The notes: generated by a model not told the origin, from the letters alone. 64,000 bases of DNA from a phage (GCA_025677605.1 GCA_025677605.1_4110.1); one strand, 5' to 3'; counted from the stretch's first letter, positions 1,079 through 55,793 are shown. Program-made: numbers and translations.

Positions 1079-3862
1079 TTATAATTCACTATAACGATTG
1101 TGTGAGTTCAGTCTGTACATTGAGTACAAACCAAGACCACGCATGATTTCACCAGCCCAAAATCCAAAGAACATCCCATTGTCTGAATCTTCTCGAACTG
1201 CTGGACTCCATGAGCCGTTCATCGGTGAACCTGGTTTTGTTATTACATAGTTATTTTGCAATTCATCAACCAATCTGTCAACCATTTCTGGTAAGCGTTC
1301 AATCTTGCACCCAGCTAAGCCACATGCACTACCACCTGCCAACCACAATCCACACATATGTCCTGTGAAATCCCATGCTGGGCCTTCAACTGTTCCATCT
1401 TTATTAAAGATTGTTGGTGAACGACCTTCATTTTCATCCTGGAATTGAATTAAAAAGTTAATCCAGTTCTCACAGAACTCAACCAATTCAACTGGTGGTT
1501 CTTCACCACGCTCTGCTAATTCTTGCCAGCAACGAGCCGCCCCAAAGAATGCACGTGGTTCATATCCACTCCATGCTTCATCACCCCAGTGTAACATTGT
1601 AAACGTATCAGGTTCACCATATTTGAGGTTGTCCCAGCGGTTCCATACATATGCCTGTGCACAAGGACCAACTGTACCGAATTGGTTTGTAAACCATTCT
1701 TGTGAATCTTTCATAAAATCCAACATATTACCCATTCTTGTATGGTCTACTGGTTCGTCTTTAAAGCAGTAAATTACTGGGTATTGGTATCCAGGATATG
1801 GTAGTCCACGCCACCCACCGTACTGATTTGCATATGGGTCAGTAATATTTGAAAATGGAATAGTACCAGGAGTGTAACGTAACGAATTTAATTCATAATC
1901 TTTAATTACACAATCCCCCAAATACGCCGAATATGCTGCTGTTCCAGAAACAGTAATAGAGAATGTCATTGTATAGTCATCGCCATTTTCGGATGTATAT
2001 AGTGGTGGAATATCATTTATACAATACCATTGGATTTTAGCAGTCCCATTGATTGGTGTTGTATCGGGTAATAGAGTGAAATCTTCCAATTCACTATATA
2101 CTGGGGCTTCTGGGTCAGGATCATCGCTGTGATTTGGCTGATACCCAGAAAGATGTAAATCCTCTGGTTTCAATTCTATTGTGGTCCATTCGCCATGTGT
2201 AGCAGGAATCATCCACCACCAACGCCATCCATTATCATCTTCGATTCTGATATTAAAATCATCATCATATGAACGATATGTAAAAGAATTAATAGGTGCT
2301 TTTTCTGAATCCAGTAGCCAGAATCCAACAACTATACCACCATCTTCACCAGTACTGATATCGCATATAGTATCAACTCTGGAACCAAGAATATCAGTAC
2401 TATATTCCATTTTATATATAGCCCCACCATAATCCACTACTGAACGACTGTCAGCCATAATATAAGAGCTACCATCATCTTTCTTCTCACGGACAAAAAC
2501 ACTTAATGGAGTTTCAGAGTGTTTAATTTCAGTACTGGTACTCAGTGGTAAACCACAACGGTATCTTATAGCATCATTATCACTTTTTGTTTTTGATAAG
2601 TCAAGTACTGGCTTAAATGTTAATGGAGAACCATCATCACATATTCCACCATAATCAACAACCAATTTCGAATCAGAATTTAGTCTGAACCATATTGCTT
2701 GCTGTTCAAGAGTACTTTGTGCACTTTGTTCCTGGCGTATTCTGATATAACCATCAACGTTGCGGGAATATGTAGCAATCGCATCACTTGGATAAAAATA
2801 ATCATATGAAATACCATCAGTAAATGGCGTAGATACTTTAGTACTTTGTCTGAAGAATTTATCAAATGCATCAATGTCACCATATGCATAACAAGTAAGT
2901 AAAGAACATTTCCATCCAAGATAATGTTTTCTTTCCTTTGTTATTTTATATAACAAGTAAGAAGCATCACTGAACCATAATTCAGCATCAGATGCGTTAT
3001 CAGCAAAGTCAAGCGTAATAGGAACATGTAATGGACGGTTGTGTTGCATCTGATTACGTGCGATGTACGTACCACCAAATTCAACAGGTTGTCTATTAGC
3101 GAAGTTTAATTTATAAACACCATTTAATGTTCTGTCTTTTACCTGTACTGTTCCTTTTTCTGACTCATAGTGTCCAGTACTGATAATATCCCCATTATAA
3201 TCTACTTTACGTCCTAAGTAATCAATTACCCAATCAACATCATATTGTTCACCAGGGTTATCCCAGTCAGTACTACCATCTGGTAATATTGCCTGTACTG
3301 ACGCGTTAATCTGATTCCATGCAAGTGCACCTTTGAATGCAAAAGTAACTTTATCAAGGAATTGACCATAATACGGCTCATCATGTGGAATACGACATTG
3401 ACCATCTATGAAATTAAATTCTACGCCTTTGAATCCACCGTGAGTAGGCCAATCATCATCTGACAAAGGCCAGTTAGCAAGTATTGGTTCTTTAGCATTC
3501 ACAATCCAGTTACATTGTAATGGACGTGGTGGATCTGGAAACTGTCTATTAGCATAAAAATATTTGTGATATGCGTCCCAATAATACTTAGCTTTATCCA
3601 AAAACATTTCATCATTAGTTGCAAGATAAGCATAGATATAACCAATGATCAAAAGACTTTGACCCTCAGTTGTCCCGTCACCATTTGGTTGACCTTCCAT
3701 TGCACTGAAATTAATAAAATGACGGTTATTTGCTAATACACCTTGATCGTTTATTACGTAATGCTGTTTTGTTGGATCTACTGTATCACCTGTATTTCTT
3801 TCTAAAAATCTATGATGACCATAAAGTAATTGTATAACGTTATCTATGTTATATTTTGTCAT
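1079..3862 (-). CDS. large hypothetical protein, possibly virion-associated (glycan-hydrolase-like or fibre-associated); function unverified
   Basis: ~927 aa ORF, Trp/Tyr/Gly-rich; probable ATG at 3862 (MTKYNIDN) overlapping stop of upstream gene; located in the fibre module. Confidence 0.45.
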   Translation of the reverse strand: MTKYNIDNVIQLLYGHHRFLERNTGDTVDPTKQHYVINDQGVLANNRHFINFSAMEGQPNGDGTTEGQSLLIIGYIYAYLATNDEMFLDKAKYYWDAYHKYFYANRQFPDPPRPLQCNWIVNAKEPILANWPLSDDDWPTHGGFKGVEFNFIDGQCRIPHDEPYYGQFLDKVTFAFKGALAWNQINASVQAILPDGSTDWDNPGEQYDVDWVIDYLGRKVDYNGDIISTGHYESEKGTVQVKDRTLNGVYKLNFANRQPVEFGGTYIARNQMQHNRPLHVPITLDFADNASDAELWFSDASYLLYKITKERKHYLGWKCSLLTCYAYGDIDAFDKFFRQSTKVSTPFTDGISYDYFYPSDAIATYSRNVDGYIRIRQEQSAQSTLEQQAIWFRLNSDSKLVVDYGGICDDGSPLTFKPVLDLSKTKSDNDAIRYRCGLPLSTSTEIKHSETPLSVFVREKKDDGSSYIMADSRSVVDYGGAIYKMEYSTDILGSRVDTICDISTGEDGGIVVGFWLLDSEKAPINSFTYRSYDDDFNIRIEDDNGWRWWWMIPATHGEWTTIELKPEDLHLSGYQPNHSDDPDPEAPVYSELEDFTLLPDTTPINGTAKIQWYCINDIPPLYTSENGDDYTMTFSITVSGTAAYSAYLGDCVIKDYELNSLRYTPGTIPFSNITDPYANQYGGWRGLPYPGYQYPVIYCFKDEPVDHTRMGNMLDFMKDSQEWFTNQFGTVGPCAQAYVWNRWDNLKYGEPDTFTMLHWGDEAWSGYEPRAFFGAARCWQELAERGEEPPVELVEFCENWINFLIQFQDENEGRSPTIFNKDGTVEGPAWDFTGHMCGLWLAGGSACGLAGCKIERLPEMVDRLVDELQNNYVITKPGSPMNGSWSPAVREDSDNGMFFGFWAGEIMRGLGLYSMYRLNSHNRYSEL

Positions 3863-3863
3863 T

Positions 3864-4493
3864 TTATACCCCTGCTCGAATAAGAGCACCGTACCATGTA
3901 ATACCACCATCATAGGTTTCTAGGGAAATTATATCTTTTTGGGATTGTTCATATGAAAGAAGAACTTGACGATTGAATGACCATTTCACATTAGAACTCC
4001 AGCTTACAAGATTTGAACCTGTGCCTTGTTCTATGATAACAGTGCAATCATATACTTGAGTTTTAGCATTAGGAAGGATATTAATTGTAGTGTTTGGTTT
4101 GTTTAGAGTTAAATTAAAAACTTTATTACCAGTACTGGTATCTATATCGTAACTATCAGCTTGTGGTAATACTGTCACAGTACTGTTGGAGCTATCATAT
4201 AATGTAACCCATTCAGTACTGTTTGTGTCATTTGTTGTGCGTGCTTGTATTTTAACACCGTTATTAGTCTCTGTCATCCCAGCCCACGCAGCAATCTGTA
4301 ACGATTGGTTGCTATCTGTTCCTAGTGTTGTAATCACTGAATTACTTAAATGATTATCTGCACCAGAAATTTCGTGTGTTCTGATAATATTAAAAGACGA
4401 TGTATCAAATGTTAATATTGGTTTTTTAAATTCAGCTTTCGAGAATTTAACAACACCAGTAACTTCCATTGTGGTGTAAAAGGAAATAGCCAT
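3864..4493 (-). CDS. hypothetical structural (fibre-like) protein
   Basis: 209 aa, Ser/Thr/Asn-rich beta-like composition typical of fibre or baseplate proteins; tightly coupled to downstream large gene. Confidence 0.45.
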   Translation of the reverse strand: MAISFYTTMEVTGVVKFSKAEFKKPILTFDTSSFNIIRTHEISGADNHLSNSVITTLGTDSNQSLQIAAWAGMTETNNGVKIQARTTNDTNSTEWVTLYDSSNSTVTVLPQADSYDIDTSTGNKVFNLTLNKPNTTINILPNAKTQVYDCTVIIEQGTGSNLVSWSSNVKWSFNRQVLLSYEQSQKDIISLETYDGGITWYGALIRAGV

Positions 4494-4577
4494 AATCCAT
4501 CCTTAAATTAGTTATTATTGGGTATTTATTGGTCTAAGTGGATTTTTTAGACCCATTTAGACCAATATTCAATAATA

Positions 4578-5819
4578 CTATTTCTTACCGTACCACTGCA
4601 TTTCTCGAATATCGATTAGAACTTTTGCAGCTAGTTGAATGTTTGGTTTCTTTGGTAGAACTGACTTAGGATACACCACATTGCGGATATAGTCAACCTT
4701 TTCATTGAAATAATCCATGACTTCTTCATACTTCCATTTACCGTTGCGGATATCCATTAGCATATCAGCATCAGGACGTTTAACAAGGATAATACCGCTT
4801 TGTAATGCTTCTTCGGCACTATTTAGCAGCCTGATCGTATGCATAGCATGTTTTAGATCGAAGCCGTGCTGTGATTCCATAAGAGCACGTTTAGCATTAC
4901 GATTCTCTTTCCATTTGTGATAACTTTTACGGTTCTCACTGTTCTCACTGTATTCTTTTTCATTGAATTTGACAATGAGTTCAGGTCGTACTTTCAATTC
5001 TTCAGTACTGCGTTCTTTGTTGAAATAACGTAAAGAACCATCAGCGTTAATTGTACTTTCATTAGGATTGATAATAACACCAAAGATATTTTCACCGTAA
5101 TGAATTAATTCGTACCCATTGTTATAATCCAATAAGTTGAAATCACGGTCTAGTACTTTATCAGTACTGTAATTATGTACTAAACGTACAAAATGATACT
5201 GTTTCAACGGATGAGTTGAAACTAACTGCAATGAAGTATCACGCATGTATTTTTCAAAATCTATTTTCTTAGCATTAAATGGATGTAGTTTAGAAGTATC
5301 TAAACGTTCTACCAAATAGTGTGGGAAGTTTTCATACATCCATGCTAAAGTTTCATCTACTGGAAAATCTTCTAAGATTTCATTTAGACGTTTTTCAGCA
5401 ATACGCTCTTTATCCATCCACCCGTGGTGATTGGACATACGCTTAACCTGATTATATGCATAACCGGTATAAGAGAATGCAATCTTAGAACTAAGTAATT
5501 GTTGATTGAATGTACGTAGATAATCATAGATTTCAGTACTTTCTACGATGTGTTCAGGATCAACCCATAGTGATTCAAGGATATTTGGGTTAGCCTCTGT
5601 GTATAGTCTTAAGTACTGATTTAGTTCATAGAATTTAGTATCTTCTTCTCTTGAATCAGAAACTTCTTTTACATTATAAAAAGGTGTCAGAATGAACTCT
5701 TTGTTAGCAAGAAAAATACCACGATAATCCGTATCACTTTCAGGTGTACTGGTTCCATACGCTTGTGAACCTGCTAAGTGCTTCACAATTGTTTGTTCAA
5801 GAAATTTGTTATTATTCAT
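4578..5819 (-). CDS. Pol-beta-superfamily nucleotidyltransferase domain protein
   Basis: N-terminal GSQAYGTSTPESDTDYRGIF fits the GS-x(9-13)-DxD nucleotidyltransferase signature; 413 aa. Confidence 0.55.
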   Translation of the reverse strand: MNNNKFLEQTIVKHLAGSQAYGTSTPESDTDYRGIFLANKEFILTPFYNVKEVSDSREEDTKFYELNQYLRLYTEANPNILESLWVDPEHIVESTEIYDYLRTFNQQLLSSKIAFSYTGYAYNQVKRMSNHHGWMDKERIAEKRLNEILEDFPVDETLAWMYENFPHYLVERLDTSKLHPFNAKKIDFEKYMRDTSLQLVSTHPLKQYHFVRLVHNYSTDKVLDRDFNLLDYNNGYELIHYGENIFGVIINPNESTINADGSLRYFNKERSTEELKVRPELIVKFNEKEYSENSENRKSYHKWKENRNAKRALMESQHGFDLKHAMHTIRLLNSAEEALQSGIILVKRPDADMLMDIRNGKWKYEEVMDYFNEKVDYIRNVVYPKSVLPKKPNIQLAAKVLIDIREMQWYGKK

Positions 5820-6217
5820 AGATGTAATGTTAGCTCCTTAAGAAACCCATTATAGTACTTCATGAAATCTTTATGAAGAACTTTGTATTCTGATAAACTA
5901 AAACCTAGATTGATTATAGTATCTTCTTGAAAGAACTTTTCTTCTTCGGATAAATCCAGAGAAATAGATTGTTTGCCACCATTTAATATTTTAGTAAAGT
6001 GTAAACCATCATTATTGATTTCAACGTACATGAAGTTATTTTCACGGTCACGAGGGCAAACAATATTAATGGAACTTTCACCAGTATCATCGTATTCGAA
6101 TGATATTACATCATACTCCCCGATTCCATAAAATTGTTTATCACTCTTGTAACCACTATATACTTTTTTATACGAATCCATCTGTCTTATGGTGCTATAC
6201 ACATCATCAAGATCCAT
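5816..6217 (-). CDS. hypothetical protein
   Basis: 133 aa ORF, 4-nt overlap with downstream gene. Confidence 0.5.
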   Translation of the reverse strand: MDLDDVYSTIRQMDSYKKVYSGYKSDKQFYGIGEYDVISFEYDDTGESSINIVCPRDRENNFMYVEINNDGLHFTKILNGGKQSISLDLSEEEKFFQEDTIINLGFSLSEYKVLHKDFMKYYNGFLKELTLHL

Positions 6218-6220
6218 ATA

Positions 6221-6724
6221 TTAACTCCTGTAATATTGTAAGTATTCGTTCTTTGCATCATCCAATTCTTTTTGTTCCTGAATTTTATTGTCGATATCTT
6301 TCACGTTAGTAATACTGTTATATAGTGCGTGAAGTACAAGAAAATCAGATACAGAAGTTGAAAAATCCTTCCACCCAACCGATATTTTAATACGCACACG
6401 TATATCACGTCCGTCCATCCAGAACATGAACCCTCGATTCCCACGTAAATCATTAATCATATACACTTTAAAACAAGAATCTCGTGTGCTGCTTTCTAGT
6501 CTTTCAAAATCTACATGAATACTGAACAAGTTTTTTGAACAGTACTTACAAAATGCATAGATAACAGGATCACATTTTGAAAGAAGATATTTGTTTTGGA
6601 TAATTTCTCTGCGATCTTTGTCTGATTTAATATTAGGTACTAATAAAGTACTTTTGTTTAAAATCAACGCAACTAAGTACTGAATAATATCATTATCTTT
6701 TACTTTATGTTTACCGAAGATCAT
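6221..6724 (-). CDS. fibre-module paralogue 3 (possible fibre chaperone or adhesin accessory)
   Basis: 167 aa; shares a K..L..K...D..R..I..K motif with the 166-aa and 186-aa neighbours. Confidence 0.5.
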   Translation of the reverse strand: MIFGKHKVKDNDIIQYLVALILNKSTLLVPNIKSDKDRREIIQNKYLLSKCDPVIYAFCKYCSKNLFSIHVDFERLESSTRDSCFKVYMINDLRGNRGFMFWMDGRDIRVRIKISVGWKDFSTSVSDFLVLHALYNSITNVKDIDNKIQEQKELDDAKNEYLQYYRS

Positions 6725-7224
6725 TAGTATAATCCTTTTAGTTTATTAAATTCATTAAGTTTATGCTGCTCGTATTCTAACTTCTTGTACTTTGTTTCAA
6801 GCTCACGAAGTGCAACGAGTAAATGAAACAAAAACATTTGTTCATGTTTAGGTAGAATATTCGCATCTCCGTTAATATAAACAAATGTATGTTTTTCATC
6901 ATAATCTTTAGATGAATATGTTACTGCATTAAAATCAACCTTAGTTTCGGTATCAAACAATTTTACACGGTTGATATGATTACCATATATGAATACTGGT
7001 TCATATAACCAACGTTCACCGTATGGTTCTTTAACTAGGTCTGTGATTAGTTTCATTAGAGAATGAGAACTTAACATTTCTTTAATTTTAAGTATAGTTC
7101 TACGATCTTCATCAGTACGGATAATTTCTTTTAAAGAATAGCTTTTCATCAGTACTGGAAGAATTAATGTACACCACTCTACATTTTCTCTTTTGTGATC
7201 ATTATTTTTCTTTTTGAAAAACAT
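6724..7224 (-). CDS. fibre-module paralogue 2
   Basis: 166 aa; TLILPVLMKSYSLKEIIRTDEDRRTILKIK aligns with TLVVRLLCKSVTLKDFVKTDNERKSLIELK of the upstream paralogue. Confidence 0.5.
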   Translation of the reverse strand: MFFKKKNNDHKRENVEWCTLILPVLMKSYSLKEIIRTDEDRRTILKIKEMLSSHSLMKLITDLVKEPYGERWLYEPVFIYGNHINRVKLFDTETKVDFNAVTYSSKDYDEKHTFVYINGDANILPKHEQMFLFHLLVALRELETKYKKLEYEQHKLNEFNKLKGLY

Positions 7225-7233
7225 AGTAACCTC

Positions 7234-7794
7234 TTAATATAAATCAGTTATTCTCTTTTGGATTTTGAATTTACGCTGTTCTTCTTCAATTTGTGATAAC
7301 TTTTCTTTAATATCTTCAGCACCAATAATCACATGGAACAGGATCATTAACTCATCGTCATCAAGCATATCATAATGAACACCGAAGTTTGAAGAAACAA
7401 CACATGATAAATCTCTTGATTGAATGATAGTTTCTTCGGTTCTGTGTTCAATCCCTGCTGGTGTATAATCGACCTTAAACATGATTGCATTTTTTAAATC
7501 ACGTAGTGTGAATTCTTCATCACCACCCCACAGTTTTTTTTGAACCATAGACCAACGATCACTGAATGGATTTTGGGTGTATTCTGCCAGTAATCCATAT
7601 AGTTTATGCTTACTTAACTTGTACTTAAGTTCGATAAGTGATTTACGTTCATTATCGGTTTTCACAAAATCTTTAAGAGTTACACTTTTGCATAGCAAAC
7701 GAACTACTAGGGTATTCTGAAAGTGCTGCTCTTTTTCTTTTAAACGTTGTAACTGTGCTGGTGACAGCGGTGGTCTAAAACGTGATTGTACCAT
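7234..7794 (-). CDS. fibre-module paralogue 1
   Basis: 186 aa; ATG at 7794 with strong AGGAGG RBS; first of three tandem paralogues downstream of the fibre genes. Confidence 0.55.
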   Translation of the reverse strand: MVQSRFRPPLSPAQLQRLKEKEQHFQNTLVVRLLCKSVTLKDFVKTDNERKSLIELKYKLSKHKLYGLLAEYTQNPFSDRWSMVQKKLWGGDEEFTLRDLKNAIMFKVDYTPAGIEHRTEETIIQSRDLSCVVSSNFGVHYDMLDDDELMILFHVIIGAEDIKEKLSQIEEEQRKFKIQKRITDLY

Positions 7795-7835
7795 AGTTTC
7801 CTCCTAGTTTTTTAGCATTATACGGATAAAAGAAA

Positions 7836-7856
7836 AGCCTGTCAATAGACAGGCTT
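7836..7856. terminator. hairpin terminator (bidirectional context)
   Basis: 8-bp stem agcctgtc/gacaggct with loop aata, flanked by A-rich and T-rich runs; just downstream of fibre gene. Confidence 0.5.
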
Positions 7857-7863
7857 AATTTTT

Positions 7864-10605
7864 TTAACTCCAACGAGTACCAGATTGTGATGGTAACCCA
7901 GAACTAGCTGGGATAGCAGAACCACGATTGTAGGTACTTGGGCGGTATAGCAAGAATCTGGACACTTTTTCAGACTCGATTGATGCAATACCATTAGCAT
8001 CAGTTACTATCTTACCAATGTAGGTTGATGTCATAGTTTCTGATAATTGATATAGTGATATCTGATACGAAGCTGTAGATGTACCTCTATCCATAACCGC
8101 ATATATGTAGAATGTTGAATTATCTGGTGTAGTACTTATGGTAGATAAGTCTATCATAGTCGGTGGTATCTTTGCAAACTTTCCACCCAAGAAAACTGGT
8201 ACTTCTTGTGAAAAGTACACGTTGAACCCTTGTGCCACATCCTGTGAAGCAACAACTAAGTACTGTGATATCGTTTCATTACCAGATATTAGTTTATCCA
8301 TATCTGCTTCAGTAGTACCACATACAGCAAAAACTGATTTAGTTTGATAATCGTTTTTGTTCATTTGGTAATATCCAAACCCAATCCCTGGAATTGTACC
8401 TATATCAAATTGTGCGTTTGAAATATAAGTTGTTTCCATATATCGTTGACTTGAAATAATACCATTTTTCACTTTAGCAATCATGTTAGGATAACGAGTC
8501 CAACCTGGGGTATCAATGCCATATAAAATGTTCACACCTAAGTAGTTAAAACCACTAAACTTAGCAACAGTCATACCAGCCCAACGTTTGATCATTTCAT
8601 TTGGTGAAATTTGGAATGTATTCGTGATTGATGTATATCTTGCTGTATCAACACTAATACCACGTAAAATTATAGTACCACTTGTACCCAGTGCACTACA
8701 TGATATTTCGGAAAAAATAATATAACACACGTTGGTAGTACCGTTTAGTGCAGAAGTGACTGCAATAGATTTAGAATATGTAGTATCAGGTACATAATAA
8801 AAAACAGTTTTATGTTCAGTTATTCCAGTCAATCCGGCTTTAGCAACGGCATTATAACCTATACCTGATAATGTAGTTCCTGAAATTTCATATCTATCAC
8901 TGTTAAAGTCCATTGTAACAGGGTCGAATTTTCCATAAGCTGGTTTATCGATACCTTCTATTAAAGAAGATCCATAAGTGCTGACATTTCCATTGGCATC
9001 AACCAATGTTACCATACCTGCATATTTGTAATCAGTACTTAAATAGTGTCTATTACCTGATGGTGCAAAACCATTCATTGTGGTATTTTGTTCCAAGTTT
9101 TTATAACTATAAGTTGGATTCTCACCTATTTCAGTAAAAACTGTACTATCATAACCATAAGAAATTCCATCAGCAGTACCAGAACATGCAACAAGTATCT
9201 TACGTTTATCTACGAAACGAACACCTATTAAGTTTTCACCGACAGGGGAGCCATAAACTGGCATTACTTCTACACGTTTTAAATTACTACCAGTACGTGT
9301 TTTAGCAACCCAACTATCATAAGGTGTACCAGAAACTTTGTATGTTTGTACTGCATAGGTCGGCATGGATGACCATCTTGCTTTGGTAGTGAAAACAAAA
9401 CCATCAGAAGTTTGACAGATTGAACCATAGTTACCAAGTGCACCATCATAAAACCCTGTAAAGTTTTCCATATTGATTGAAAACGGGTTACTCACTGTTA
9501 TACTACCAGTTGATGTATTAGCTGATACTCTGATTGGACCACGTTCAGAACCGTCAAGTGTCATTGTTTTAGTACTGATATCATATGTAAAGCTGATACC
9601 AAGTGCATATACACCAGATGTTTTTGTTGCGGTAAAGACACGAAACCCTGGATATATCGCTACTCTTATTTTTGTACCATCAGGACTGATAACTGCTTGT
9701 GTATTAAATGCGTTATTTTCCCAATAATCTATTCTGGAAACACCATTATCATATGCTATTAGTGCATCACCACCTGAACCCAACACTGAATAACTATCAT
9801 AAACACGAATATTATTAGATGCAGTGTATGTTACATTTCTTATAGTTCTTCCTGAATAACCACTAATCTGTGTTACTGTCGAAACTGAACCAGTATTAAA
9901 TGCAGTTAAAGGTACTGTGTATATGATAAATGCACACCCGCGAACACTACTCAATACACTTGAATCCATACACCATATATAAACTGAATCATTTACGATG
10001 TGTGCATAGATTGGTTTATTTGTTATTGCTGTTTTTGGAATTCTGCAATGTTTGTGTGCTGATTCATTTAATGTTTCATTTGTTAATGTAAGGTAGTATG
10101 ATGCTCTATCAGTTGATTCCCAAAATAGTAATTCATATGCATTTGACCCATAAAATTCATAAATGTAATCAGTGCTTGGTAGCACAGAAGGTCTATACAT
10201 CGTGTTGGTTGTAATTATATTATCTTGAGTTAGTGTTTCTATATCTCTTATATTTTTAATATAAGCATAATAGTAACCATACGAACTTCCATTTGTACCT
10301 GCACGTAAAATTACACCAGTACCATCATTTTCAATGATACAAGGTTGCATTATTTTTGCAAATGAAAAGGAAGAAGCACCTTCAAATGTACCGTTAATAC
10401 TCATCGGTAGGTAATCTTGATCACCTACCCTTGAAACTGGAAGCATATCAAACATCTGATCTACTTCCGCTTTGTCATAATATTGGTAAGTGATTTTACC
10501 AGCAGAATCAGCAGGGAATCCATTAAAGGAACGTAATGCATACTTTCCATTAATTTTCAAATTCCCTAGTATTTCTGCGTTTCCTATAATTCGTCTCGAA
10601 GCCAT
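7864..10605 (-). CDS. tail fibre protein
   Basis: ~913 aa, Gly/Ser/Thr/Asn/Tyr-rich; C-terminal ~120 aa shared with the two upstream fibre ORFs; ATG at 10605 with AAGGA RBS (track start 10632 is upstream alternative). Confidence 0.7.
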   Translation of the reverse strand: MASRRIIGNAEILGNLKINGKYALRSFNGFPADSAGKITYQYYDKAEVDQMFDMLPVSRVGDQDYLPMSINGTFEGASSFSFAKIMQPCIIENDGTGVILRAGTNGSSYGYYYAYIKNIRDIETLTQDNIITTNTMYRPSVLPSTDYIYEFYGSNAYELLFWESTDRASYYLTLTNETLNESAHKHCRIPKTAITNKPIYAHIVNDSVYIWCMDSSVLSSVRGCAFIIYTVPLTAFNTGSVSTVTQISGYSGRTIRNVTYTASNNIRVYDSYSVLGSGGDALIAYDNGVSRIDYWENNAFNTQAVISPDGTKIRVAIYPGFRVFTATKTSGVYALGISFTYDISTKTMTLDGSERGPIRVSANTSTGSITVSNPFSINMENFTGFYDGALGNYGSICQTSDGFVFTTKARWSSMPTYAVQTYKVSGTPYDSWVAKTRTGSNLKRVEVMPVYGSPVGENLIGVRFVDKRKILVACSGTADGISYGYDSTVFTEIGENPTYSYKNLEQNTTMNGFAPSGNRHYLSTDYKYAGMVTLVDANGNVSTYGSSLIEGIDKPAYGKFDPVTMDFNSDRYEISGTTLSGIGYNAVAKAGLTGITEHKTVFYYVPDTTYSKSIAVTSALNGTTNVCYIIFSEISCSALGTSGTIILRGISVDTARYTSITNTFQISPNEMIKRWAGMTVAKFSGFNYLGVNILYGIDTPGWTRYPNMIAKVKNGIISSQRYMETTYISNAQFDIGTIPGIGFGYYQMNKNDYQTKSVFAVCGTTEADMDKLISGNETISQYLVVASQDVAQGFNVYFSQEVPVFLGGKFAKIPPTMIDLSTISTTPDNSTFYIYAVMDRGTSTASYQISLYQLSETMTSTYIGKIVTDANGIASIESEKVSRFLLYRPSTYNRGSAIPASSGLPSQSGTRWS

Positions 10606-10615
10606 ATATATTCCT

Positions 10616-11206
10616 TTACCATTCTGTCCCACTATTCACATCTGGTGTACCAGAACTGATAGGGATAGCTGAACCAATTTTTGTAGCACTTACTCTGAAG
10701 TCGTCAAATCTTGACACTTTATTTATACTGACCCCTGTAATGCCATCTGGGAAAACTGTCAGTTGTCCTATGTACATATTAACACTACTTTCAGGGCGTT
10801 GAGTTTTAGAAATGAGGTAGTCAGCTACCCCAACATCTAATATAACATATACATAATGTGTTTCAATATTAGTACCAGTAACTCCTGGGTCCGTTATTGT
10901 TTTAGCAGGGAGGGTATAAACCGCTCCCGCCATGAACAATGGTAATTCTTTACTGAAAGTCAATTTGAATCCAGCGGCAGTAATACCTAATGGTTCATTA
11001 CTGTAAAGTGAACCAAATTGTGATAACGGAAAGGAACTGGTAATGTAATTCACATCATCTGTACTCATGAGTGGTACATCAACATTCCCATTAGCATCAG
11101 CTTGATACACATTACCAGAACGATCAGTTATCGTGGTCCCAGTATTTTTTCCTTGTGATTTAACGGAAGCATACGCTTCCACATCAGATCTAAATTTATA
11201 AGCCAT
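10616..11206 (-). CDS. small tail-fibre-related protein
   Basis: 196 aa; C-terminus (...KVSRFDDFRVSATKIGSAIPISSGTPDVNSGTEW) is homologous to the C-termini of the flanking large fibre proteins. Confidence 0.6.
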   Translation of the reverse strand: MAYKFRSDVEAYASVKSQGKNTGTTITDRSGNVYQADANGNVDVPLMSTDDVNYITSSFPLSQFGSLYSNEPLGITAAGFKLTFSKELPLFMAGAVYTLPAKTITDPGVTGTNIETHYVYVILDVGVADYLISKTQRPESSVNMYIGQLTVFPDGITGVSINKVSRFDDFRVSATKIGSAIPISSGTPDVNSGTEW

Positions 11207-11216
11207 ATTATCTCCA

Positions 11217-13901
11217 TTACCAATTCACATTACCAGAACTTGAAGGGAACCCAGAACTAACTGGGAAGGAACTTCCGGCAGCGTCGAATGATGAACCAAA
11301 CAGGTCTAAACGCGAACGTTTTGCTATATTAATTTCGGTTATTTGTAAATTATCAGTTTTCACTGTACCAATCCAGAATATTGAATGAGTTTCAGCTAAT
11401 TCAGTTGTTGATATATGATAGTTTGCAATACCCTGTACTAATTTAATATACACATAAAATGTAGTATTGGCAGGATTTGCTTTCACAGTTGTTAAATCTA
11501 TATTTGATATTGGTAATGTATAGTGTTTACCGGATATCAGTACTGGTGTCTCTTCGGTGAAGTATATAATAAAACCTTGAGCAACATCTTGGGAAACAAG
11601 ACATATAAATGGATTTCCTTTATCAGTCCATGCATTATAATCCGCTAATGTTGTACCATATGTTCTAAAAATTGTTTTGTTATTATTATCTATACTTTGA
11701 AGAATACCAAACCCAATGTTAGGTAAAGCGAATGGTTGACCATCTAATGCATAGATCGGACGTGCACCAGCTATATGGAAATTATTAAATTGGGCTGTCG
11801 CTTTATCCACTGTAGCACGGAAAAATGGAGAGTTTGTATTACCAACTGTATTAAAGAAACCAGGAATACCACCACCAATGAAGTAGAAAGAACCCGCATC
11901 ATATATAGTAATACCAATACTTCCACTATCAAGATGATATGCGGTATCTGTTTTGTAATCCCCAGCTTGAACACTTTCATGTACTAAACGTTTGAACGAC
12001 CATGTTGTAATATCACCAGTTCTTGTATTGACATTCAATTCAACAACTCGAATATATAGACCACGGGCTGTAGTAGATGCTGCAAGAACACCAAAAACAG
12101 GAATATCAGTTTGTTGTGGAACAAATACAGATAATGTTTTTATTGATGCTGGTGATATATTCCATGAACTAGCAACTTTAGCAAATTCGGAATTTCTAAT
12201 GGAATTCATTATATCTTGTGACATACTGATTGTACCATTATTCAGTACATTACCTTTATAATCAAAACTAATTGGCGTTGATGTTCTATTATCAGCCACC
12301 AAAACACCACCATTAGTCGTTACCGTTGAACCAGAAATTGAACTTATAAAAATTCTAGATTCTGGTGTAGTTATAAACGCTCGGTCTGGTGTTGGTTCAT
12401 AGCCAAGAACATTACCATAGTCTAGAGACTTAAATGTAAAGTTCGGGGTAGCTTTATGTACAGCATAGGATGGATAAAAACGACCATCACCTGAACGTCT
12501 TGAATATTGCTTAGTACTGTTATTTGGTAATAACTCCACACCCACTTGGAATGAACCAACTGCTGAACCAAATCTTGGTGATACGACACCATTAATAAAA
12601 TCAGTTGCCGATACACTTCTAACATCCATTAAATCAAATAATGATTTGGGTGGGTATTTTGCATATGATATATTCAATGCTTCTGCAAGGTTTGGTGAAA
12701 ATGAGCAAAACGCATCCCCAGTTGATGGAACATAGCAATAATTACTGAAAATGTTACGTCCACCTGCGTGAAGATAAAACGGGTCAGTTGTTAAACATGG
12801 ACCAGATTCATTCATGCTTGTACCATTATCATAAACAGCAACTGGTGTAGTAGTTGTCATATTATCCAATGCACATTGCTTAGTAGCAATATCAAAAGTC
12901 ATACTAAAACTGTGTTGTGGTCGTATATCATATCTGCCGTTAGTCATCCACATATCGCCACATAATCTAAATTTAAATGTAGTTGTACCTGATTTCTGTG
13001 CAACATATAAATCTGGATCTGTCATATAAATACCAAACCCAATAATACCACTTGGAATTAAAACGTATGGATTATCATTGGTATTTGTTGAATTTATTTT
13101 CATAGTTGGAACAATATTGTCATCATATACCATTGCATTATAAAAAGTTCTTGTGGCCCAACCAGTAATTCTAGTAACACTATAAGTACCACCACCTGGG
13201 TTATTACTTGGACTAAAAGTAACTTTAACCACTGATATTTTAAGAGTATTGCTTGGTGTATCTAAACTGAAAAAGTATAATGCACCATCTTCTGCACGAA
13301 TAACAAATTGTACTTCACCAATTGGCCTAACTGAAGCATAGTCATCAATTAAAATTCCGGTATGCATTGCATCGTTCATTGTGCCATTATTAACGGATAC
13401 AAAAAGTTTATTAATTGAACCATTACTTGCCATACCACATGTAATATCATCACTACATGAATATAAATGGTATGCATAATAATCACCAAAATAATTTGGT
13501 TTATATGCACGAGTAGTATTAACCATACGACTTGTATTTGTTGTACCAACCGCCTGGGTCATATAACTATAATAAACCCCTTGTGTACTCCCATTTGTAC
13601 CAGGACGTAGCATTACTAAAGTGTTATCATCTTCCAAAAATAATTTTGTATTTCTGGATTTAGTATTTTCTGAAGAACCAACTGTTGTACCATTGACACC
13701 AGCAGGTAGATAGTTTTGTGTACCATAACGAGAAATGGGTAACATACCAACCATTTCCAGCATATCATCTTGTGTATATGCATCTATTGTGAGATTGCCA
13801 TTTTCATCAAATACGTTATCATTGATGCTCTGAACACTTCTCTTACCTTTGACTGTTACATTATGTGTAACATCAATGCCACCATATATTTTCTTTGCCA
13901 T
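11217..13901 (-). CDS. tail fibre protein
   Basis: 894 aa; fibre-like composition; C-terminal module QDVAQGF..YF..E.PV...GK...P......T homologous to the 913-aa fibre; ATG 13901 with AAGGGA RBS. Confidence 0.7.
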   Translation of the reverse strand: MAKKIYGGIDVTHNVTVKGKRSVQSINDNVFDENGNLTIDAYTQDDMLEMVGMLPISRYGTQNYLPAGVNGTTVGSSENTKSRNTKLFLEDDNTLVMLRPGTNGSTQGVYYSYMTQAVGTTNTSRMVNTTRAYKPNYFGDYYAYHLYSCSDDITCGMASNGSINKLFVSVNNGTMNDAMHTGILIDDYASVRPIGEVQFVIRAEDGALYFFSLDTPSNTLKISVVKVTFSPSNNPGGGTYSVTRITGWATRTFYNAMVYDDNIVPTMKINSTNTNDNPYVLIPSGIIGFGIYMTDPDLYVAQKSGTTTFKFRLCGDMWMTNGRYDIRPQHSFSMTFDIATKQCALDNMTTTTPVAVYDNGTSMNESGPCLTTDPFYLHAGGRNIFSNYCYVPSTGDAFCSFSPNLAEALNISYAKYPPKSLFDLMDVRSVSATDFINGVVSPRFGSAVGSFQVGVELLPNNSTKQYSRRSGDGRFYPSYAVHKATPNFTFKSLDYGNVLGYEPTPDRAFITTPESRIFISSISGSTVTTNGGVLVADNRTSTPISFDYKGNVLNNGTISMSQDIMNSIRNSEFAKVASSWNISPASIKTLSVFVPQQTDIPVFGVLAASTTARGLYIRVVELNVNTRTGDITTWSFKRLVHESVQAGDYKTDTAYHLDSGSIGITIYDAGSFYFIGGGIPGFFNTVGNTNSPFFRATVDKATAQFNNFHIAGARPIYALDGQPFALPNIGFGILQSIDNNNKTIFRTYGTTLADYNAWTDKGNPFICLVSQDVAQGFIIYFTEETPVLISGKHYTLPISNIDLTTVKANPANTTFYVYIKLVQGIANYHISTTELAETHSIFWIGTVKTDNLQITEINIAKRSRLDLFGSSFDAAGSSFPVSSGFPSSSGNVNW

Positions 13902-13932
13902 ATATATCCCTTTTATCTAGATATCCATAGTG

Positions 13933-13940
13933 TATTTATA
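13933..13940 (-). promoter_or_regulatory. T4-type late promoter motif TATAAATA
   Basis: plus-strand tatttata (minus strand TATAAATA) about 32 nt upstream of the fibre gene ATG. Confidence 0.45.
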
Positions 13941-13946
13941 ATAGTA

Positions 13947-13969
13947 TAAAAAAAGCACCCAAAGGGTGC
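13947..13969 (-). terminator. rho-independent terminator
   Basis: stem gcaccc/gggtgc with loop aaa followed on minus strand by U-run (plus A-run 13947-13954). Confidence 0.5.
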
Positions 13970-13978
13970 TTCTTCATA

Positions 13979-14137
13979 TTAACCGCCGTGTTTAGAAAAT
14001 TCAACTGCTCTTAATTGTTTAAGTGCTTCTTTTCTGGTTGGGTGACGACCGAGAACTTTCTTCCCTGTGTGGTCAGTAACAACCCACTCATTTCCACGTT
14101 TCTGTATCTTTTCAGAAATAATATCAAGATAACGCAT
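13979..14137 (-). CDS. small hypothetical protein (52 aa, below ORF-track cutoff)
   Basis: ATG 14137 preceded by AAAGGAG RBS; translation MRYLDIISEKIQKRGNEWVVTDHTGKKVLGRHPTRKEALKQLRAVEFSKHGG; overlaps nrdG stop by 14 nt. Confidence 0.4.
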   Translation of the reverse strand: MRYLDIISEKIQKRGNEWVVTDHTGKKVLGRHPTRKEALKQLRAVEFSKHGG

Positions 14138-22646: not shown

Positions 22647-22714
22647 GATTTACTTCCTTCTTCGATAATGGTGTGTTCATTATAGCAATGAACACATTTA
22701 ATGTCAATAATAGA

Positions 22715-47427: not shown

Positions 47428-48573
47428 CTAAAAATCCTTTAGTACATCTTTGTAGTACTTTAGTAAAGTCTCTTTATAATCGACACTTTTGCCATTGTAC
47501 AACGCAAAGGCCAAGCCTTGTCGGTTCAATACATTAGGTAAATCTTGCTGAACCTTTTGAGCGAATTCCTTTCGCTCTAAGTGCTTGTATGCATGGACGA
47601 AGCTTTCTACCTCATCTTGTAAAGCATTATAGCACGAAAATACCAATTGTTCCATTCTTAATATCTTATCCATAGCATATGTATCAGTACTGAACAATTG
47701 TTTTAAGTCATCACTTGCACCAGTCAGTACAGCTTCATATAAATGGGAATCAATAAGAATGGAATCTTTTGTTAAATGCAAAGAGCAATACCAGTCAGTT
47801 TTGATTTTGCACATTGTACCATCTTTCATTATACACACAAAACCTTCAATGTCAAGCATAGAACGTACTTTATCGATTGACTCTTTAAATGTAGGCATAA
47901 TCGGGAATGTATGATGAATGTCATTACCTGTCATATTAGTACTGTACTGTGAAAGGCATGGAAACTTATCACGTAGTGCTTTACCGCATAACAACTCACC
48001 ACTAATACGATGACGAACGTTAAGAACAAATAACTGTTCCACCTGATATGGTAACACAATTCGATACTCTGGGCTTGTGTATTCCAGATTCACAGTATAG
48101 CCCAAACGGTCTGCTTCATCAATGTATTGATAGAGATTTTGGTTCTCGTTCAAAAGTCGAGTACTGTTAATAGCATGGTCAGAAGATAACGAAGTGTGTG
48201 ATTTGCAACGGATTTCACCATCATTATCACGGAATGTGCTGATGATAGATCCATCTAGCTTAGGCATTACAACCGCAATATCATCACAGGTAGTATCAGC
48301 ACTGAACATTGTGTACGGGTTTTCATATGCATTGAAGAACTTTTTCATTGTACGTGCTGCACAACGAATCATAATTCCGTTGGAATCAATTTCCCACATA
48401 GAACCACGAGTTTCTAGTGCATTTTTATTTGTGAAATCGGTATAAGATGCCAGACGATAGGTGAATACACGGTATAAACCACCACCAGGGCTTGTGTGAT
48501 CTATATAGAAAAATGCATCATTAGATTCACATAGTTCCATTAAATCATTGTATATTTCTCGTAAATTACTCAT
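47428..48573 (-). CDS. rnlA: RNA ligase 1
   Basis: 381 aa; adenylation motif VMPKLDGS (KxDG); size and context match T4 RnlA. Confidence 0.85.
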   Translation of the reverse strand: MSNLREIYNDLMELCESNDAFFYIDHTSPGGGLYRVFTYRLASYTDFTNKNALETRGSMWEIDSNGIMIRCAARTMKKFFNAYENPYTMFSADTTCDDIAVVMPKLDGSIISTFRDNDGEIRCKSHTSLSSDHAINSTRLLNENQNLYQYIDEADRLGYTVNLEYTSPEYRIVLPYQVEQLFVLNVRHRISGELLCGKALRDKFPCLSQYSTNMTGNDIHHTFPIMPTFKESIDKVRSMLDIEGFVCIMKDGTMCKIKTDWYCSLHLTKDSILIDSHLYEAVLTGASDDLKQLFSTDTYAMDKILRMEQLVFSCYNALQDEVESFVHAYKHLERKEFAQKVQQDLPNVLNRQGLAFALYNGKSVDYKETLLKYYKDVLKDF

Positions 48574-55257: not shown

Positions 55258-55793
55258 GGTTCTTTCCTCATGTATTTTATTACATCTTTAAAAAGTTTTA
55301 TTTTCAAGTCATTATCATCACCTGGTAGATAAGAACTGAAGCTTTCAAAATCATCACGCTTAGCAAAAGAACGCATTTCAGTTGAACTGTACTTGCTAAC
55401 GGTTCGGTCTATACCAGCTTGGATTGCTTTTATATTACGAAAATTATACAAGTTTCCATTGTATCTGTCAAGTACATTTTGAAAGTTTTCTATCCTGTCT
55501 GAACCACATATGAAAAGAACATCACTGTACTTACCATTCAATTCCTGCATAATATCAAAAAGATTATCTTCAGTACTGATGTTGTGTTGAATTCTTGGAT
55601 AGAAACCCTCAGTGTAATACATTTTCAATTCAGGTGGTAATGGATTCTTAATACAATCTTGTGTAGTACTAAGGTATATTTTTAAATCAGCATTGTATTG
55701 TTCTTTCATCGATACGGCTTTATCAAAAATTAACCCATGTCCCAAATGCACTGGATTTATACGTCCATACGTTACTATACAAGTGTCTTTCAT
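55254..55793 (-). CDS. HxGH-family nucleotidyltransferase, NMNAT-like (PPAT-like not excluded)
   Basis: TYGRINPVHLGH (T/HxGH motif) and C-terminal SKYSSTEMR (ISSTxxR-type motif). Confidence 0.6.
   Translation of the reverse strand: MKDTCIVTYGRINPVHLGHGLIFDKAVSMKEQYNADLKIYLSTTQDCIKNPLPPELKMYYTEGFYPRIQHNISTEDNLFDIMQELNGKYSDVLFICGSDRIENFQNVLDRYNGNLYNFRNIKAIQAGIDRTVSKYSSTEMRSFAKRDDFESFSSYLPGDDNDLKIKLFKDVIKYMRKEP

What the first reader, a model, noticed from the sequence alone, without database searches (positions are those of the whole stretch)
6221..13901. Three fibre genes share a C-terminal module and are followed by three tandem paralogues
The 894-aa, 196-aa and 913-aa fibre ORFs end in a homologous ~120-aa module (QDVAQGF..YF..E.PV...GK, ...K.SRF.....S.....GS..P.SSG.P...G...W). 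Immediately downstream are three paralogous ~170-aa genes. This looks like modular duplication of a receptor-binding or assembly domain with cognate accessory proteins (chaperone or adhesin-like), which would bear on host range.
Basis: partly seen in the sequence, partly recalled or inferred. Interest (0 to 1): 0.5.

Follow-up and report, generated by a model that had tools for sequence, protein, structure and literature searches.

The report
Jumbo-phage fibre trio plus unrelated early genes
Three neighbouring virion ("fibre") genes of a giant E. coli phage are true paralogues that move between phages as one host-range cassette, one of them reduced to only its two end modules, while the three small genes downstream are a separate early-expressed family and not their dedicated helpers.

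Summary
The window is an Asteriusvirus jumbo phage, 99% identical to Escherichia phage A4. Both observations hold. F894, F196 and F913 share a ~125-aa C-terminal module (E 1e-17 to 1e-20), and the three downstream proteins (186, 166 and 167 aa) are paralogues.

The homology goes further than reported. F894 and F913 are paralogous over their whole length. F196 also shares the N-terminal ~68 aa. It is the middle paralogue with its ~700-aa beta-propeller body missing; relatives GAP32 and fHe-Yen9-04 have three full-length copies.

The family has no assigned function in PHROGs. It is a virion protein in phAPEC6. In RAY, EL and SPN3US it is fused to the phiKZ gp131-type fibre-attachment domain. The end modules are the conserved parts and the propeller body is variable, so the shared module is more likely an assembly or docking element than a receptor-binding tip.

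The "cognate accessory" reading is not supported:
- The small genes are separated from the trio by a terminator.
- They have their own perfect sigma-70 promoter.
- They are packed with a nucleotidyltransferase gene.
- They are absent from the phAPEC6 virion proteome.
- Phage EJP2 lacks them.
- In ph0011 they were not co-transferred with the fibre cassette.

Their function is unknown. Overall this is a modest finding.

The parts
13953..13971 (-). Intrinsic terminator (GC hairpin AAGCACCCTTTGGGTGCTT followed by a T7 run) that closes the upstream nrdG unit. It forms the upstream boundary of the fibre cassette.
   Evidence: Read directly; hairpin listed. The equivalent hairpin is conserved in ph0011, 121Q, EJP2, GAP32 and Yen9-04. 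The blastn block shared with ph0011 ends at 13979.
13933..13940 (-). TATAAATA, a T4-type late-promoter-like motif 32 nt upstream of the F894 ATG.
   Evidence: The motif is depleted in the window (4 found vs 11.2 expected). (T/A)ATAAATA is conserved at the same place in ph0011, 121Q, EJP2, GAP32 and Yen9-04. PMC5259590 proposes ATAAATA as the late promoter of structural genes in CBB and GAP32. Its function here is inferred.
11217..13901 (-). F894, fibre paralogue 1. Layout: N-terminal shared segment (aa 1-68), beta-propeller body (aa ~70-765), C-module (aa 770-894).
11220..11594 (-). C-module of F894 (aa 770-894): a ~90-aa beta domain plus a conserved 30-aa tail ending in Trp. The tail is predicted disordered in the monomer.
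   Evidence: pLDDT below 50 for aa 864-894. It is the most conserved segment among orthologues.
10616..11206 (-). F196, fibre paralogue 2 in mini form. It consists of the N-segment (aa 1-72) joined directly to the C-module (aa 73-196); the propeller body is missing.
   Evidence: Both halves best match the middle full-length paralogue GAP32_144 (E 4e-12 and 3e-22). It shares an N-terminal indel and the LSQ[FY]G motif with GAP32_144. dN/dS is 0.25. PHROG 26864.
7864..10605 (-). F913, fibre paralogue 3, with the same architecture as F894. Its C-module is aa 787-913 (nt 7867-8247).
   Evidence: PHROG 3573, E 2.5e-206. Position-3 orthologues cluster in the C-module tree.
7817..7856 (-). Composite element: an intrinsic terminator hairpin (7856-7835 plus T-run) that carries a perfect sigma-70 promoter (TTGACA, 17 nt spacer, TATAAT; 7845-7817). 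A Shine-Dalgarno sequence and the p186 ATG follow.
   Evidence: There are 4 perfect promoters in the window, all on the - strand, against 0.23 expected. The element is conserved after the third fibre gene in seven other phages. The ph0011 recombination boundary lies at 7783.
7234..7794 (-). p186, small paralogue 1 (PHROG 18641).
   Evidence: AF2 model pLDDT 70: N-terminal helices, a 3-stranded sheet and a 40-residue C-terminal helix. No significant fold match.
6724..7224 (-). p166, small paralogue 2 (PHROG 18641).
6221..6724 (-). p167, small paralogue 3 (PHROG 7868), the most divergent of the three.
   Evidence: It is 92% identical to the A4 copy with dN/dS 0.52.
4578..6217 (-). p133 (5816-6217) and an RlaP-family nucleotidyltransferase (4578-5819). 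Both are packed or overlapping with the small paralogues and are probably in the same operon. Given as context.
   Evidence: Coordinates (gaps of 9 and 3 nt, overlaps of 1 and 4 nt). Pfam RlaP, E 2e-17. The same linkage is seen in 121Q and Muenster.

Best explanation
The region holds two independent units.

Unit 1 (about 7860-13975, - strand) is a three-gene cassette bounded by terminators. It probably has a late, T4-type TATAAATA promoter. It encodes three ancient paralogues of a jumbo-phage virion protein family that most likely forms baseplate-attached, host-recognising fibres.
- Each full-length subunit (F894, F913) has three parts: a ~68-aa N-terminal segment, a variable body of probably two beta-propellers of the lectin or sialidase fold type (the likely receptor-binding part), and a conserved ~125-aa C-module (a small beta domain plus a flexible Trp-terminated tail).
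- F196 is the middle paralogue after loss of the propeller body. It keeps only the two end modules and is under purifying selection.
- I infer that the shared end modules are assembly or docking elements.
- The most likely use is to bring the three paralogues together into one hetero-oligomeric fibre (1:1:1). F196 would supply the third chain of the end modules without a body.
- The precedent is phiKZ, where paralogues gp131, gp133, gp134 and gp135 are proposed to co-assemble through a shared domain.
- The cassette is exchanged between phages as a unit and so acts as a host-range module.

Unit 2 (about 4578-7845) is a separate operon. It is driven by a perfect sigma-70 promoter, so it is probably early. 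It encodes three fast-evolving cytoplasmic paralogues of a family restricted to RaK2-like phages, followed by p133 and an RlaP nucleotidyltransferase. These are not fibre-specific helpers. My best guess is host-interaction or anti-defence proteins.

Shown: the homologies, the domain layout, the mosaic inheritance, the regulatory motifs, and virion detection of an orthologue.
Inferred: late and early timing, baseplate location, hetero-oligomer formation, receptor binding by the propellers, and the role of the small paralogues.
For: Homology and layout:
- Pairwise and HMM homology of the three proteins.
- Three full-length tandem paralogues follow nrdG in GAP32, CBB and Yen9-04.
- Both halves of F196 best match the middle copy GAP32_144, and they share an indel.
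- Orthologues at positions 1 and 3 cluster across genera, with 85% and 66-89% bootstrap.

Structure:
- AF2 model pLDDT 84, all-beta, with disordered conserved termini.
- The ends are conserved and the body is variable.

Virion and fibre link:
- phAPEC6 gp323c was found in virion mass spectrometry.
- CBB_148 and CBB_149 are annotated as structural.
- SPN3US gp168 is a tail protein.
- RAY gp18 and gp19, EL gp115 and SPN3US gp168 carry the C-module. Their N-terminal regions are homologous to phiKZ gp131/133/134/135 (gp168 only to gp131 and over ~135 aa; the others over ~250 aa; E 1e-7 to 1e-19).
- That N-domain is the fibre-attachment domain of the proposed hetero-hexameric phiKZ fibre (PMC13250141).
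- RAY also has three C-modules, one of them on a body-less 420-aa protein, gp18.

Cassette behaviour:
- Window vs ph0011: the block 7783-13979 is 91.6% identical, with dS 0.15-0.38 against 1.05-1.45 for the backbone. dN/dS is 0.17-0.25 for all three genes.

Unit 2:
- Terminator plus perfect promoter, conserved in four genera.
- RpoD-like promoters mark early genes in the relative CBB.
- Tight packing with the nucleotidyltransferase gene.
- 35-37% aa identity between lineages whose backbone proteins are 84-91% identical.
- Only 69 representatives among 1.84 billion proteins, all standalone.
Against: - No structure, interaction or localisation data exist for any member carrying the Asteriusvirus-type N-segment. 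That segment is not homologous to the gp131 N-domain, so attachment to the baseplate is an extrapolation.
- Hetero-oligomer formation is untested. I could not run a multimer prediction. Three separate homo-oligomers would fit most of the data equally well.
- The CBB virion mass-spectrometry table, as far as it was displayed, does not list CBB_147-149. The phAPEC6 detection rests on 4 peptides.
- Placement of the short paralogues within the C-module tree is unresolved.
- The propeller matches are generic (4-11% identity), and no binding or catalytic residues were examined.
- Promoter timing is inferred from motifs only.
- The role proposed for the small paralogues has no positive evidence.
Confidence: 0.55

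Rival explanations
1. Three independent receptor-binding proteins. F894 and F913 each form their own homo-oligomeric fibre or spike with its own receptor specificity. The shared N- and C-modules dock each of them separately to the virion. F196 is a body-less adaptor, plug or spacer that occupies the same docking site.
For: - Multiple independent receptor-binding proteins are the norm in RaK2-like phages; see the Muenster tail-fibre cluster.
- The paralogues are only 25% identical.
- Position-specific signatures in the C-tail could reflect three different docking sites.
- The monomer model is compact and confident on its own (pTM 0.79).
Against: - All three genes are kept in the same order in four genera.
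- They transfer together as one block.
- A count of three C-modules recurs in the distant RAY lineage, including one body-less copy.
- phiKZ shows that such paralogue sets can co-assemble.
- None of these points excludes this rival.
Confidence: 0.3
2. The C-module is a receptor-binding tip or an intramolecular chaperone. The three ~170-aa proteins are cognate chaperones or adhesins, one per fibre.
For: - Three fibres sit next to three small genes.
- The small paralogue family also lies downstream of the unrelated receptor-binding gene cluster in RaK2-like Muenster.
- Both blocks are hypervariable between Asteriusvirus lineages.
Against: - A terminator and a separate sigma-70 promoter lie between the blocks.
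- ph0011 pairs window-type fibres with small paralogues that are only 35-37% identical to the window's.
- EJP2 has the trio without any detectable small paralogue.
- GAP32 and Yen9-04 have four small paralogues for three fibres, interleaved with Thg1 and methyltransferase genes.
- The small paralogues are not in the phAPEC6 virion proteome.
- There is no Pfam, PDB or fold similarity to Tfa, gp38 or S74.
- The C-module is the conserved part, not the variable part, and it is internal in some homologues.
Confidence: 0.08
3. The trio is a virion decoration rather than a baseplate fibre. It could form, for example, the 'hairy' whiskers or collar appendages seen on the phAPEC6 and CBB tails and capsids, or it could be an injected or internal protein.
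For: - phAPEC6 and CBB carry unassigned whisker fibres at three tail levels and on the capsid (PMC7247149).
- The Asteriusvirus N-segment differs from the gp131-type baseplate attachment domain.
- The genes lie outside the main structural gene block, next to nrdDG.
Against: - The family is present in phages without reported whiskers.
- In RAY, EL and SPN3US it is fused to the baseplate-fibre attachment domain.
- SPN3US gp168 was assigned to the tail.
- The model is a globular propeller architecture, not a thin filament.
Confidence: 0.1

Closest known systems
phiKZ gp131-gp135 baseplate-fibre paralogue set (Sycheva et al. 2012; structural atlas of phiKZ, PMC13250141)
   Same: - A tandem set of paralogous virion proteins that share a terminal assembly domain and differ elsewhere.
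- It includes a small paralogue (gp132, 110 aa).
- gp131 has a distal beta-propeller (seven blades).
- The paralogues are proposed to co-assemble into a hetero-oligomeric fibre base.
- RAY gp18 and gp19, EL gp115 and SPN3US gp168 physically link the two families by carrying both the gp131-type N-domain and the C-module found here.
   Different: - The window proteins have no detectable gp131-type N-domain. They have a different ~68-aa N-segment.
- The C-module is not detectable in the 116-214 kb of phiKZ that I scanned.
- Here both ends are shared, not only the N-terminus.
- PDB 4GBF was not among the top fold matches.
GAP32_143/144/145, CBB_147-149 and fHe-Yen9-04 g137-139 (PHROG 3573; annotated 'hypothetical', 'structural protein' or 'minor tail protein')
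   Same: - Direct orthologues in the same position after nrdG, in the same order and with the same N- and C-modules.
- The same terminator, late-motif and sigma-70 promoter framing.
   Different: In these genera the middle gene is full length (895-912 aa). In Asteriusvirus it is a 195-196-aa protein with only the end modules.
Beta-propeller receptor-binding proteins and lectins or sialidases (phage phi11 RBP 5EFV, phi92 endosialidase 4HIZ, AAL and AofleA fucose lectins)
   Different: - Sequence identity is only 4-11%.
- No family-level sequence match.
- No active-site or sugar-site residues were checked.
- The similarity is at the level of the generic propeller fold.
Tail-fibre chaperones (lambda/P2/Mu Tfa family, T4 gp38 and gp57A) and the C-terminal intramolecular chaperone (Peptidase_S74)
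   Same: Only the gene position: small genes immediately downstream of fibre genes, and a conserved C-terminal fibre module.
   Different: - No sequence or fold similarity.
- A separate promoter.
- Not co-inherited with the fibres.
- The module is conserved in a body-less protein and is internal in some homologues.

Membership tests
Jumbo-phage virion protein family PHROG 3573 / 7449 / 26864 (GAP32_143-145, EL gp115, RAY gp19 type) | Full-length sequence homology to family profiles | tested here: met
   F894 vs PHROG 3573: E 1.7e-198. F913: E 2.5e-206. F196 vs PHROG 26864: E 1.5e-43. tblastn finds 161 phage records.
Jumbo-phage virion protein family PHROG 3573 / 7449 / 26864 (GAP32_143-145, EL gp115, RAY gp19 type) | Presence of the ~125-aa C-module (QDVAQGF...YF..E.P...G ... 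K.SR...GS..P.S.G.P...G...W) | tested here: met
   The module HMM hits all three window proteins and 27 other ORFs, including RAY gp18-20, EL gp114 and gp115, and SPN3US gp168. Alignment A6.
Jumbo-phage virion protein family PHROG 3573 / 7449 / 26864 (GAP32_143-145, EL gp115, RAY gp19 type) | Physical presence in the virion | not testable with these tools
   Only by proxy: phAPEC6 gp323c (the F894 orthologue) gave 4 peptides in virion mass spectrometry; SPN3US gp168 is a tail protein; CBB_148 and CBB_149 are annotated as structural.
phiKZ gp131-like fibre paralogue family | gp131-type N-terminal attachment domain (~250 aa) | tested here: not met
   BLASTP of F894, F913 and F196 against all phiKZ ORFs of 116-214 kb gave no hit to gp131-135 (best E 0.39, to another ORF). 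RAY gp18 and gp19 and EL gp115 hit at E 1e-11 to 1e-19. The N-module HMM finds nothing in phiKZ.
phiKZ gp131-like fibre paralogue family | C-terminal seven-bladed beta-propeller (PDB 4GBF) | tested here: inconclusive
   A propeller fold is predicted, but 4GBF is not in the top 50-60 matches. I could not count blades because no coordinates were available.
phiKZ gp131-like fibre paralogue family | Co-assembly of the paralogues into one hetero-oligomeric fibre | not testable with these tools
   No multimer prediction was available. The idea is supported only by analogy and by co-inheritance.
Intramolecular chaperone / Peptidase_S74 C-terminal domain | Match to Pfam PF13884 or to solved S74 domains | tested here: not met
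   No Pfam hit for the proteins or for 17 C-modules. The profile search against PDB sequences found nothing.
Intramolecular chaperone / Peptidase_S74 C-terminal domain | Invariant catalytic Ser-Lys dyad and a strictly C-terminal position | tested here: not met
   The only invariant residues are a Thr and a Tyr. The Ser of the K.SR motif is replaced in RAY gp20 and EL gp115. The module is followed by ~150 aa in RAY gp20 and ~300 aa in SPN3US gp168.
Tail-fibre assembly chaperones (Tfa/Caudo_TAP, T4 gp38, gp57A), tested for p186, p166 and p167 | Sequence or fold similarity to a known chaperone family | tested here: not met
Tail-fibre assembly chaperones (Tfa/Caudo_TAP, T4 gp38, gp57A), tested for p186, p166 and p167 | Co-transcription and co-inheritance with the cognate fibre gene | tested here: not met
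   A terminator plus an own sigma-70 promoter. The ph0011 mosaic. EJP2 lacks them.

The most novel reading that the evidence does not exclude
The three paralogues build an obligate hetero-trimeric (pseudo-threefold) fibre. One chain has been reduced to its two assembly modules, so the fibre would display two different propeller receptor-binding bodies. A similar '2 long + 1 short, three C-modules' arrangement is also found in the distant nucleus-forming phage RAY (gp18, gp19, gp20). That recurrence would point to a general design rule for jumbo-phage fibres. Separately, the three small paralogues would be a new family of hypervariable early host-interaction or anti-defence proteins.
Probability: 0.3. 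Interest if true: 0.6.

Novelty: new variant of a known kind. Interest (0 to 1): 0.35.

Why it matters
If the trio is a host-range cassette that moves as a unit between terminators, it gives a defined swap unit for engineering the host range of Asteriusvirus jumbo phages, which are being isolated as therapy candidates.

The body-less middle paralogue is a natural experiment. It marks which parts of these uncharacterised proteins are needed for assembly and which for receptor binding. It also suggests that hetero-oligomeric fibres built from paralogues, recently proposed for phiKZ, may be widespread in jumbo phages.

Separating the small paralogues from the fibres also prevents a mis-annotation as "tail fibre chaperones". 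It flags them instead as a fast-evolving early gene family of unknown role.

Tried and rejected
- Single-sequence and profile searches of the full-length proteins, the C-module and the N-module against PDB sequences gave nothing significant.
- Pfam and NCBIfam gave nothing for any of the six proteins. A DUF5484 hit at the F894 N-terminus (E 0.015) is chance: only 1 of 14 homologues shows it.
- I expected a direct link to phiKZ gp131, following the statement in PMC5105663. The window proteins do not match gp131-135. The link exists only through the chimeric RAY, EL and SPN3US proteins.
- The weak 4y9v (phage lyase) motif match of the small-paralogue profile (E 0.046) was judged to be chance.
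- The exhaustive search over 1.84 billion protein representatives found no fused or annotated relatives of the small paralogues.
- The word-indexed protein search with F196 alone found only 6 close relatives.
- The C-module tree could not place the short paralogues, which sit on long branches.
- The Goslar cryo-EM preprint does not resolve or mention the Goslar homologue gp26.
- A first bootstrap script timed out and one script failed on a file name. Both were rerun.

Full report
**Origin and gene map.** The 7.7-kb region is 99.0% identical to Escherichia phage A4, a 355-kb Asteriusvirus jumbo phage. All six genes are annotated there as hypothetical proteins. All lie on the - strand. In transcription order they are:
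- nrdD, nrdG, then a terminator
- F894 (11217-13901)
- F196 (10616-11206)
- F913 (7864-10605)
- a terminator/promoter element
- p186 (7234-7794), p166 (6724-7224), p167 (6221-6724)
- p133 (5816-6217)
- an RlaP-family nucleotidyltransferase (4578-5819)

**Check of the observation.** The shared C-terminal module is real.
- F196 aa 77-196 aligns with F913 aa 791-912 at 39% identity (E 8e-21).
- It aligns with F894 aa 774-894 at 36% identity (E 7e-18).

The homology is wider than reported.
- F894 and F913 are paralogous over their whole length (25% identity, E 6e-48).
- F196 also shares the first ~68 residues (N-module HMM; alignment).

The three downstream proteins are paralogues.
- p186 vs p166 gives E 7e-14, and p186 vs p167 gives E 1e-4.
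- They show reciprocal hits to PHROGs 18641 and 7868.
- An iterative HMM unites them with three genes in 121Q, phAPEC6 and ph0011, and with four each in GAP32 and fHe-Yen9-04.

There are no further members of either family elsewhere in the 64-kb window.

**What the large proteins are.**
- PHROGs places them in families of unknown function: 3573, 7449 and 26864.
- Pfam, NCBIfam and PDB sequence searches, including profile searches, give nothing.
- tblastn finds the family in 161 phage genomes, almost all of them jumbo phages. These include Asteriusvirus, Mimasvirus (GAP32, CBB), Eneladusvirus (fHe-Yen9-04) and Xanthomonas phages. They also include nucleus-forming phages: RAY, EL, SPN3US, Goslar and OBP.
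- An AlphaFold2 model of F894 built on 32 sequences is good (pLDDT 84.3, pTM 0.79).
- The model is all-beta from residue 70 to 860, with about 51 strands in residues 86-749. I read this as roughly two propellers. It is followed by a small 9-strand domain.
- The first 61 residues and the last 31 have low confidence, although their sequences are conserved.
- That is generic propeller similarity (4-11% identity), not family membership.

**Virion and fibre evidence.**
- The phAPEC6 orthologue of F894, gp323c, was detected in purified virions with 4 peptides. The F196 and F913 orthologues are not annotated in that genome, so they could not have been scored.
- CBB_148 and CBB_149 are annotated as structural proteins.
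- SPN3US gp168 is a tail protein (PMC5105663).
- RAY gp18 and gp19, EL gp115 and SPN3US gp168 contain the C-module. Their N-terminal regions are homologous to phiKZ gp131/133/134/135 (gp168 only to gp131 and over ~135 aa; the others over ~250 aa; E 1e-7 to 1e-19).
- In the 2026 phiKZ atlas, that N-domain anchors a proposed hetero-hexameric fibre base (gp131 x3 plus gp133, gp134 and gp135) to the peripheral baseplate (PMC13250141).
- F913 aligns with RAY over 94% of its length. So in chimalliviruses the same body and C-module sit on a bona fide baseplate-fibre anchor.
- The window proteins themselves lack that anchor. They are not members of the gp131 N-domain family, and their attachment site is inferred.

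**The mini paralogue.**
- GAP32, CBB and fHe-Yen9-04 carry three full-length (~900 aa) paralogues in the same place.
- Both halves of F196 best match the middle one, GAP32_144. The N-terminal half gives E 4e-12, against 2.5e-6 and 3.7e-4 for the flanking copies. The C-terminal half gives E 2.9e-22.
- Only the middle copy shares the 4-5-residue N-terminal insertion and the LSQ[FY]G motif.
- Orthologues at positions 1 and 3 form clades across genera, with 85% and 66-89% bootstrap. The triplication is therefore old.
- F196 is thus the middle paralogue with residues ~69 to ~785 removed.
- It is 195-196 aa long in all Asteriusviruses examined and is under purifying selection (dN/dS 0.25).
- RAY independently shows the same pattern. 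It has three C-modules, one of them on a 420-aa protein (gp18) that has the anchor domain and the C-module but no body.

**What the shared modules do (inference).**
- Among 28 F894 orthologues, the first 120 and last 140 residues are the conserved parts (60-73% identity). The body is variable (34-55%).
- The module is retained without a body in F196.
- It is internal in RAY gp20 and SPN3US gp168.
- It has no conserved Ser-Lys dyad.

This speaks against a receptor-binding tip and against an S74-type intramolecular chaperone. It favours an assembly or docking role. The three genes persist in fixed order and transfer together, and phiKZ provides a precedent. For these reasons I favour a hetero-oligomer of the three paralogues. 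Three separate homo-oligomers remain a serious rival.

**Cassette behaviour.** Against ph0011:
- Backbone genes are saturated at synonymous sites (dS 1.05-1.45; 84-91% aa identity).
- The block 7783-13979 is 91.6% identical (dS 0.15-0.38; 89-95% aa identity).
- Its edges fall at the two terminators.
- Against 121Q, ph0011's fibres are only 44-54% identical, but its small paralogues are 87-96% identical.

ph0011 is therefore a 121Q-type phage that acquired a window-type fibre trio without the small paralogues.

**The small paralogues are a separate unit.**
- Between the F913 stop codon and the p186 start codon lies a GC hairpin with a T-run. Its loop and 3' arm carry TTGACA, a 17-nt spacer and TATAAT, a 12/12 match to consensus. 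A Shine-Dalgarno sequence follows.
- The window has four such perfect promoters, all on the coding strand, against 0.23 expected by chance.
- The same composite element follows the third fibre gene in ph0011, 121Q, phAPEC6, EJP2, GAP32 and Yen9-04. It also follows an unrelated fibre cluster in the RaK2-like phage Muenster.
- Upstream of F894 there is a terminator and then TATAAATA, 32 nt before the ATG. The motif is conserved as (T/A)ATAAATA in the relatives and is depleted genome-wide.
- For the relative CBB, RpoD-like promoters were assigned to early genes and ATAAATA to late structural genes (PMC5259590).
- p186, p166, p167, p133 and the nucleotidyltransferase gene are packed with gaps of 9 and 3 nt and overlaps of 1 and 4 nt.
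- EJP2 has the trio but no detectable small paralogue anywhere in its genome.
- GAP32 and Yen9-04 have four small paralogues, interleaved with Thg1, DUF4326 and methyltransferase genes.
- None of the small paralogues was found in the phAPEC6 virion proteome.
- The family is tiny: 69 representatives among 1.84 billion proteins, all standalone proteins of 150-210 aa.
- The p186 model (pLDDT 70) shows N-terminal helices, a three-stranded sheet and a 40-residue C-terminal helix. It has no significant structural neighbour.
- The small paralogues diverge much faster than the backbone: 35-37% against 84-91% aa identity.

I conclude that they are probably early, cytoplasmic, rapidly evolving proteins. 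A host-interaction or anti-defence role is a guess without positive evidence.

**Verdict.** The region does contain a duplicated fibre-type host-range cassette. However, the shared module is probably for assembly rather than receptor binding, and the downstream paralogues are not cognate accessories. Novelty is modest. The family is already catalogued but uncharacterised. The body-less middle paralogue and the recurrent set of three C-modules are the interesting points.

Noticed in passing
window 7817-7845, 22679-22707, 47828-47855, 55443-55471 (all - strand): There are four perfect TTGACA-N16-18-TATAAT promoters, all on the coding strand, against 0.23 expected by chance. They probably mark the early transcription units of this phage.
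   Followed up: partly
window 13933-13940 and 10720-10727 (- strand): TATAAATA, the T4 late-promoter consensus, is depleted in the window (4 found vs 11.2 expected). The two copies on the coding strand lie 32 nt before the F894 ATG and, inside F196, 115 nt before the F913 ATG. The second may be an internal late promoter.
   Followed up: partly
window 1090-4579: The 209-aa tail-fibre-like gene (3864-4493; PHROG tail-fibre hits) and the ~927-aa 'tail protein I' gene downstream of the nucleotidyltransferase are present in A4, in the window and in 121Q (genes 508 and 509). They are missing from ph0011, which therefore differs in a second receptor-binding locus.
   Followed up: partly
window 4578-5819 and 6221-6724: Against phage A4, the nucleotidyltransferase gene has dS 0.24 and p167 is only 92% identical (dN/dS 0.52), although the flanking genes are 98-100% identical. 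These look like local recombination or divergence patches in an otherwise near-identical genome.
   Followed up: no
L007 (phAPEC6) 6397-6984 and ~6990-9730; L008 (121Q) gene 501: The phAPEC6 GenBank record does not annotate the orthologues of F196 and F913; only a spurious 114-nt ORF is annotated there. They could therefore not be found in its virion proteome. The annotated start of 121Q_501 appears to be truncated.
   Followed up: partly
window 13300-13499 (F894 aa ~135-200): There is one hypervariable patch inside the otherwise 84-100% identical fibre cassette when compared with ph0011 (71% nucleotide identity). It lies in the first propeller region and is a candidate specificity loop.
   Followed up: no
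L005 (RAY) 5098-6360, gp18: RAY gp18 (420 aa) consists of a phiKZ gp131-type N-domain plus the C-module and has no propeller body. It is a second, distant example of a body-less fibre paralogue sitting next to two long ones (gp19, gp20).
   Followed up: partly
L015 (Goslar) 4881-7484, gp26: Goslar gp26 (867 aa) is a body homologue of F913 (E 2e-13). It is flanked by a Peptidase_S74-domain protein (gp25) and by two ~165-aa genes (gp27, gp28). The 2026 Goslar cryo-EM preprint does not resolve the peripheral baseplate or fibres and does not mention gp26.
   Followed up: partly
small-paralogue profile (alignment A4), motif in p186 aa ~47-62: The conserved motif R..hI..KY.hSK weakly matches the C-terminal part of a phage 'particle-associated lyase' (PDB 4y9v, E 0.046). 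This is probably chance.
   Followed up: no
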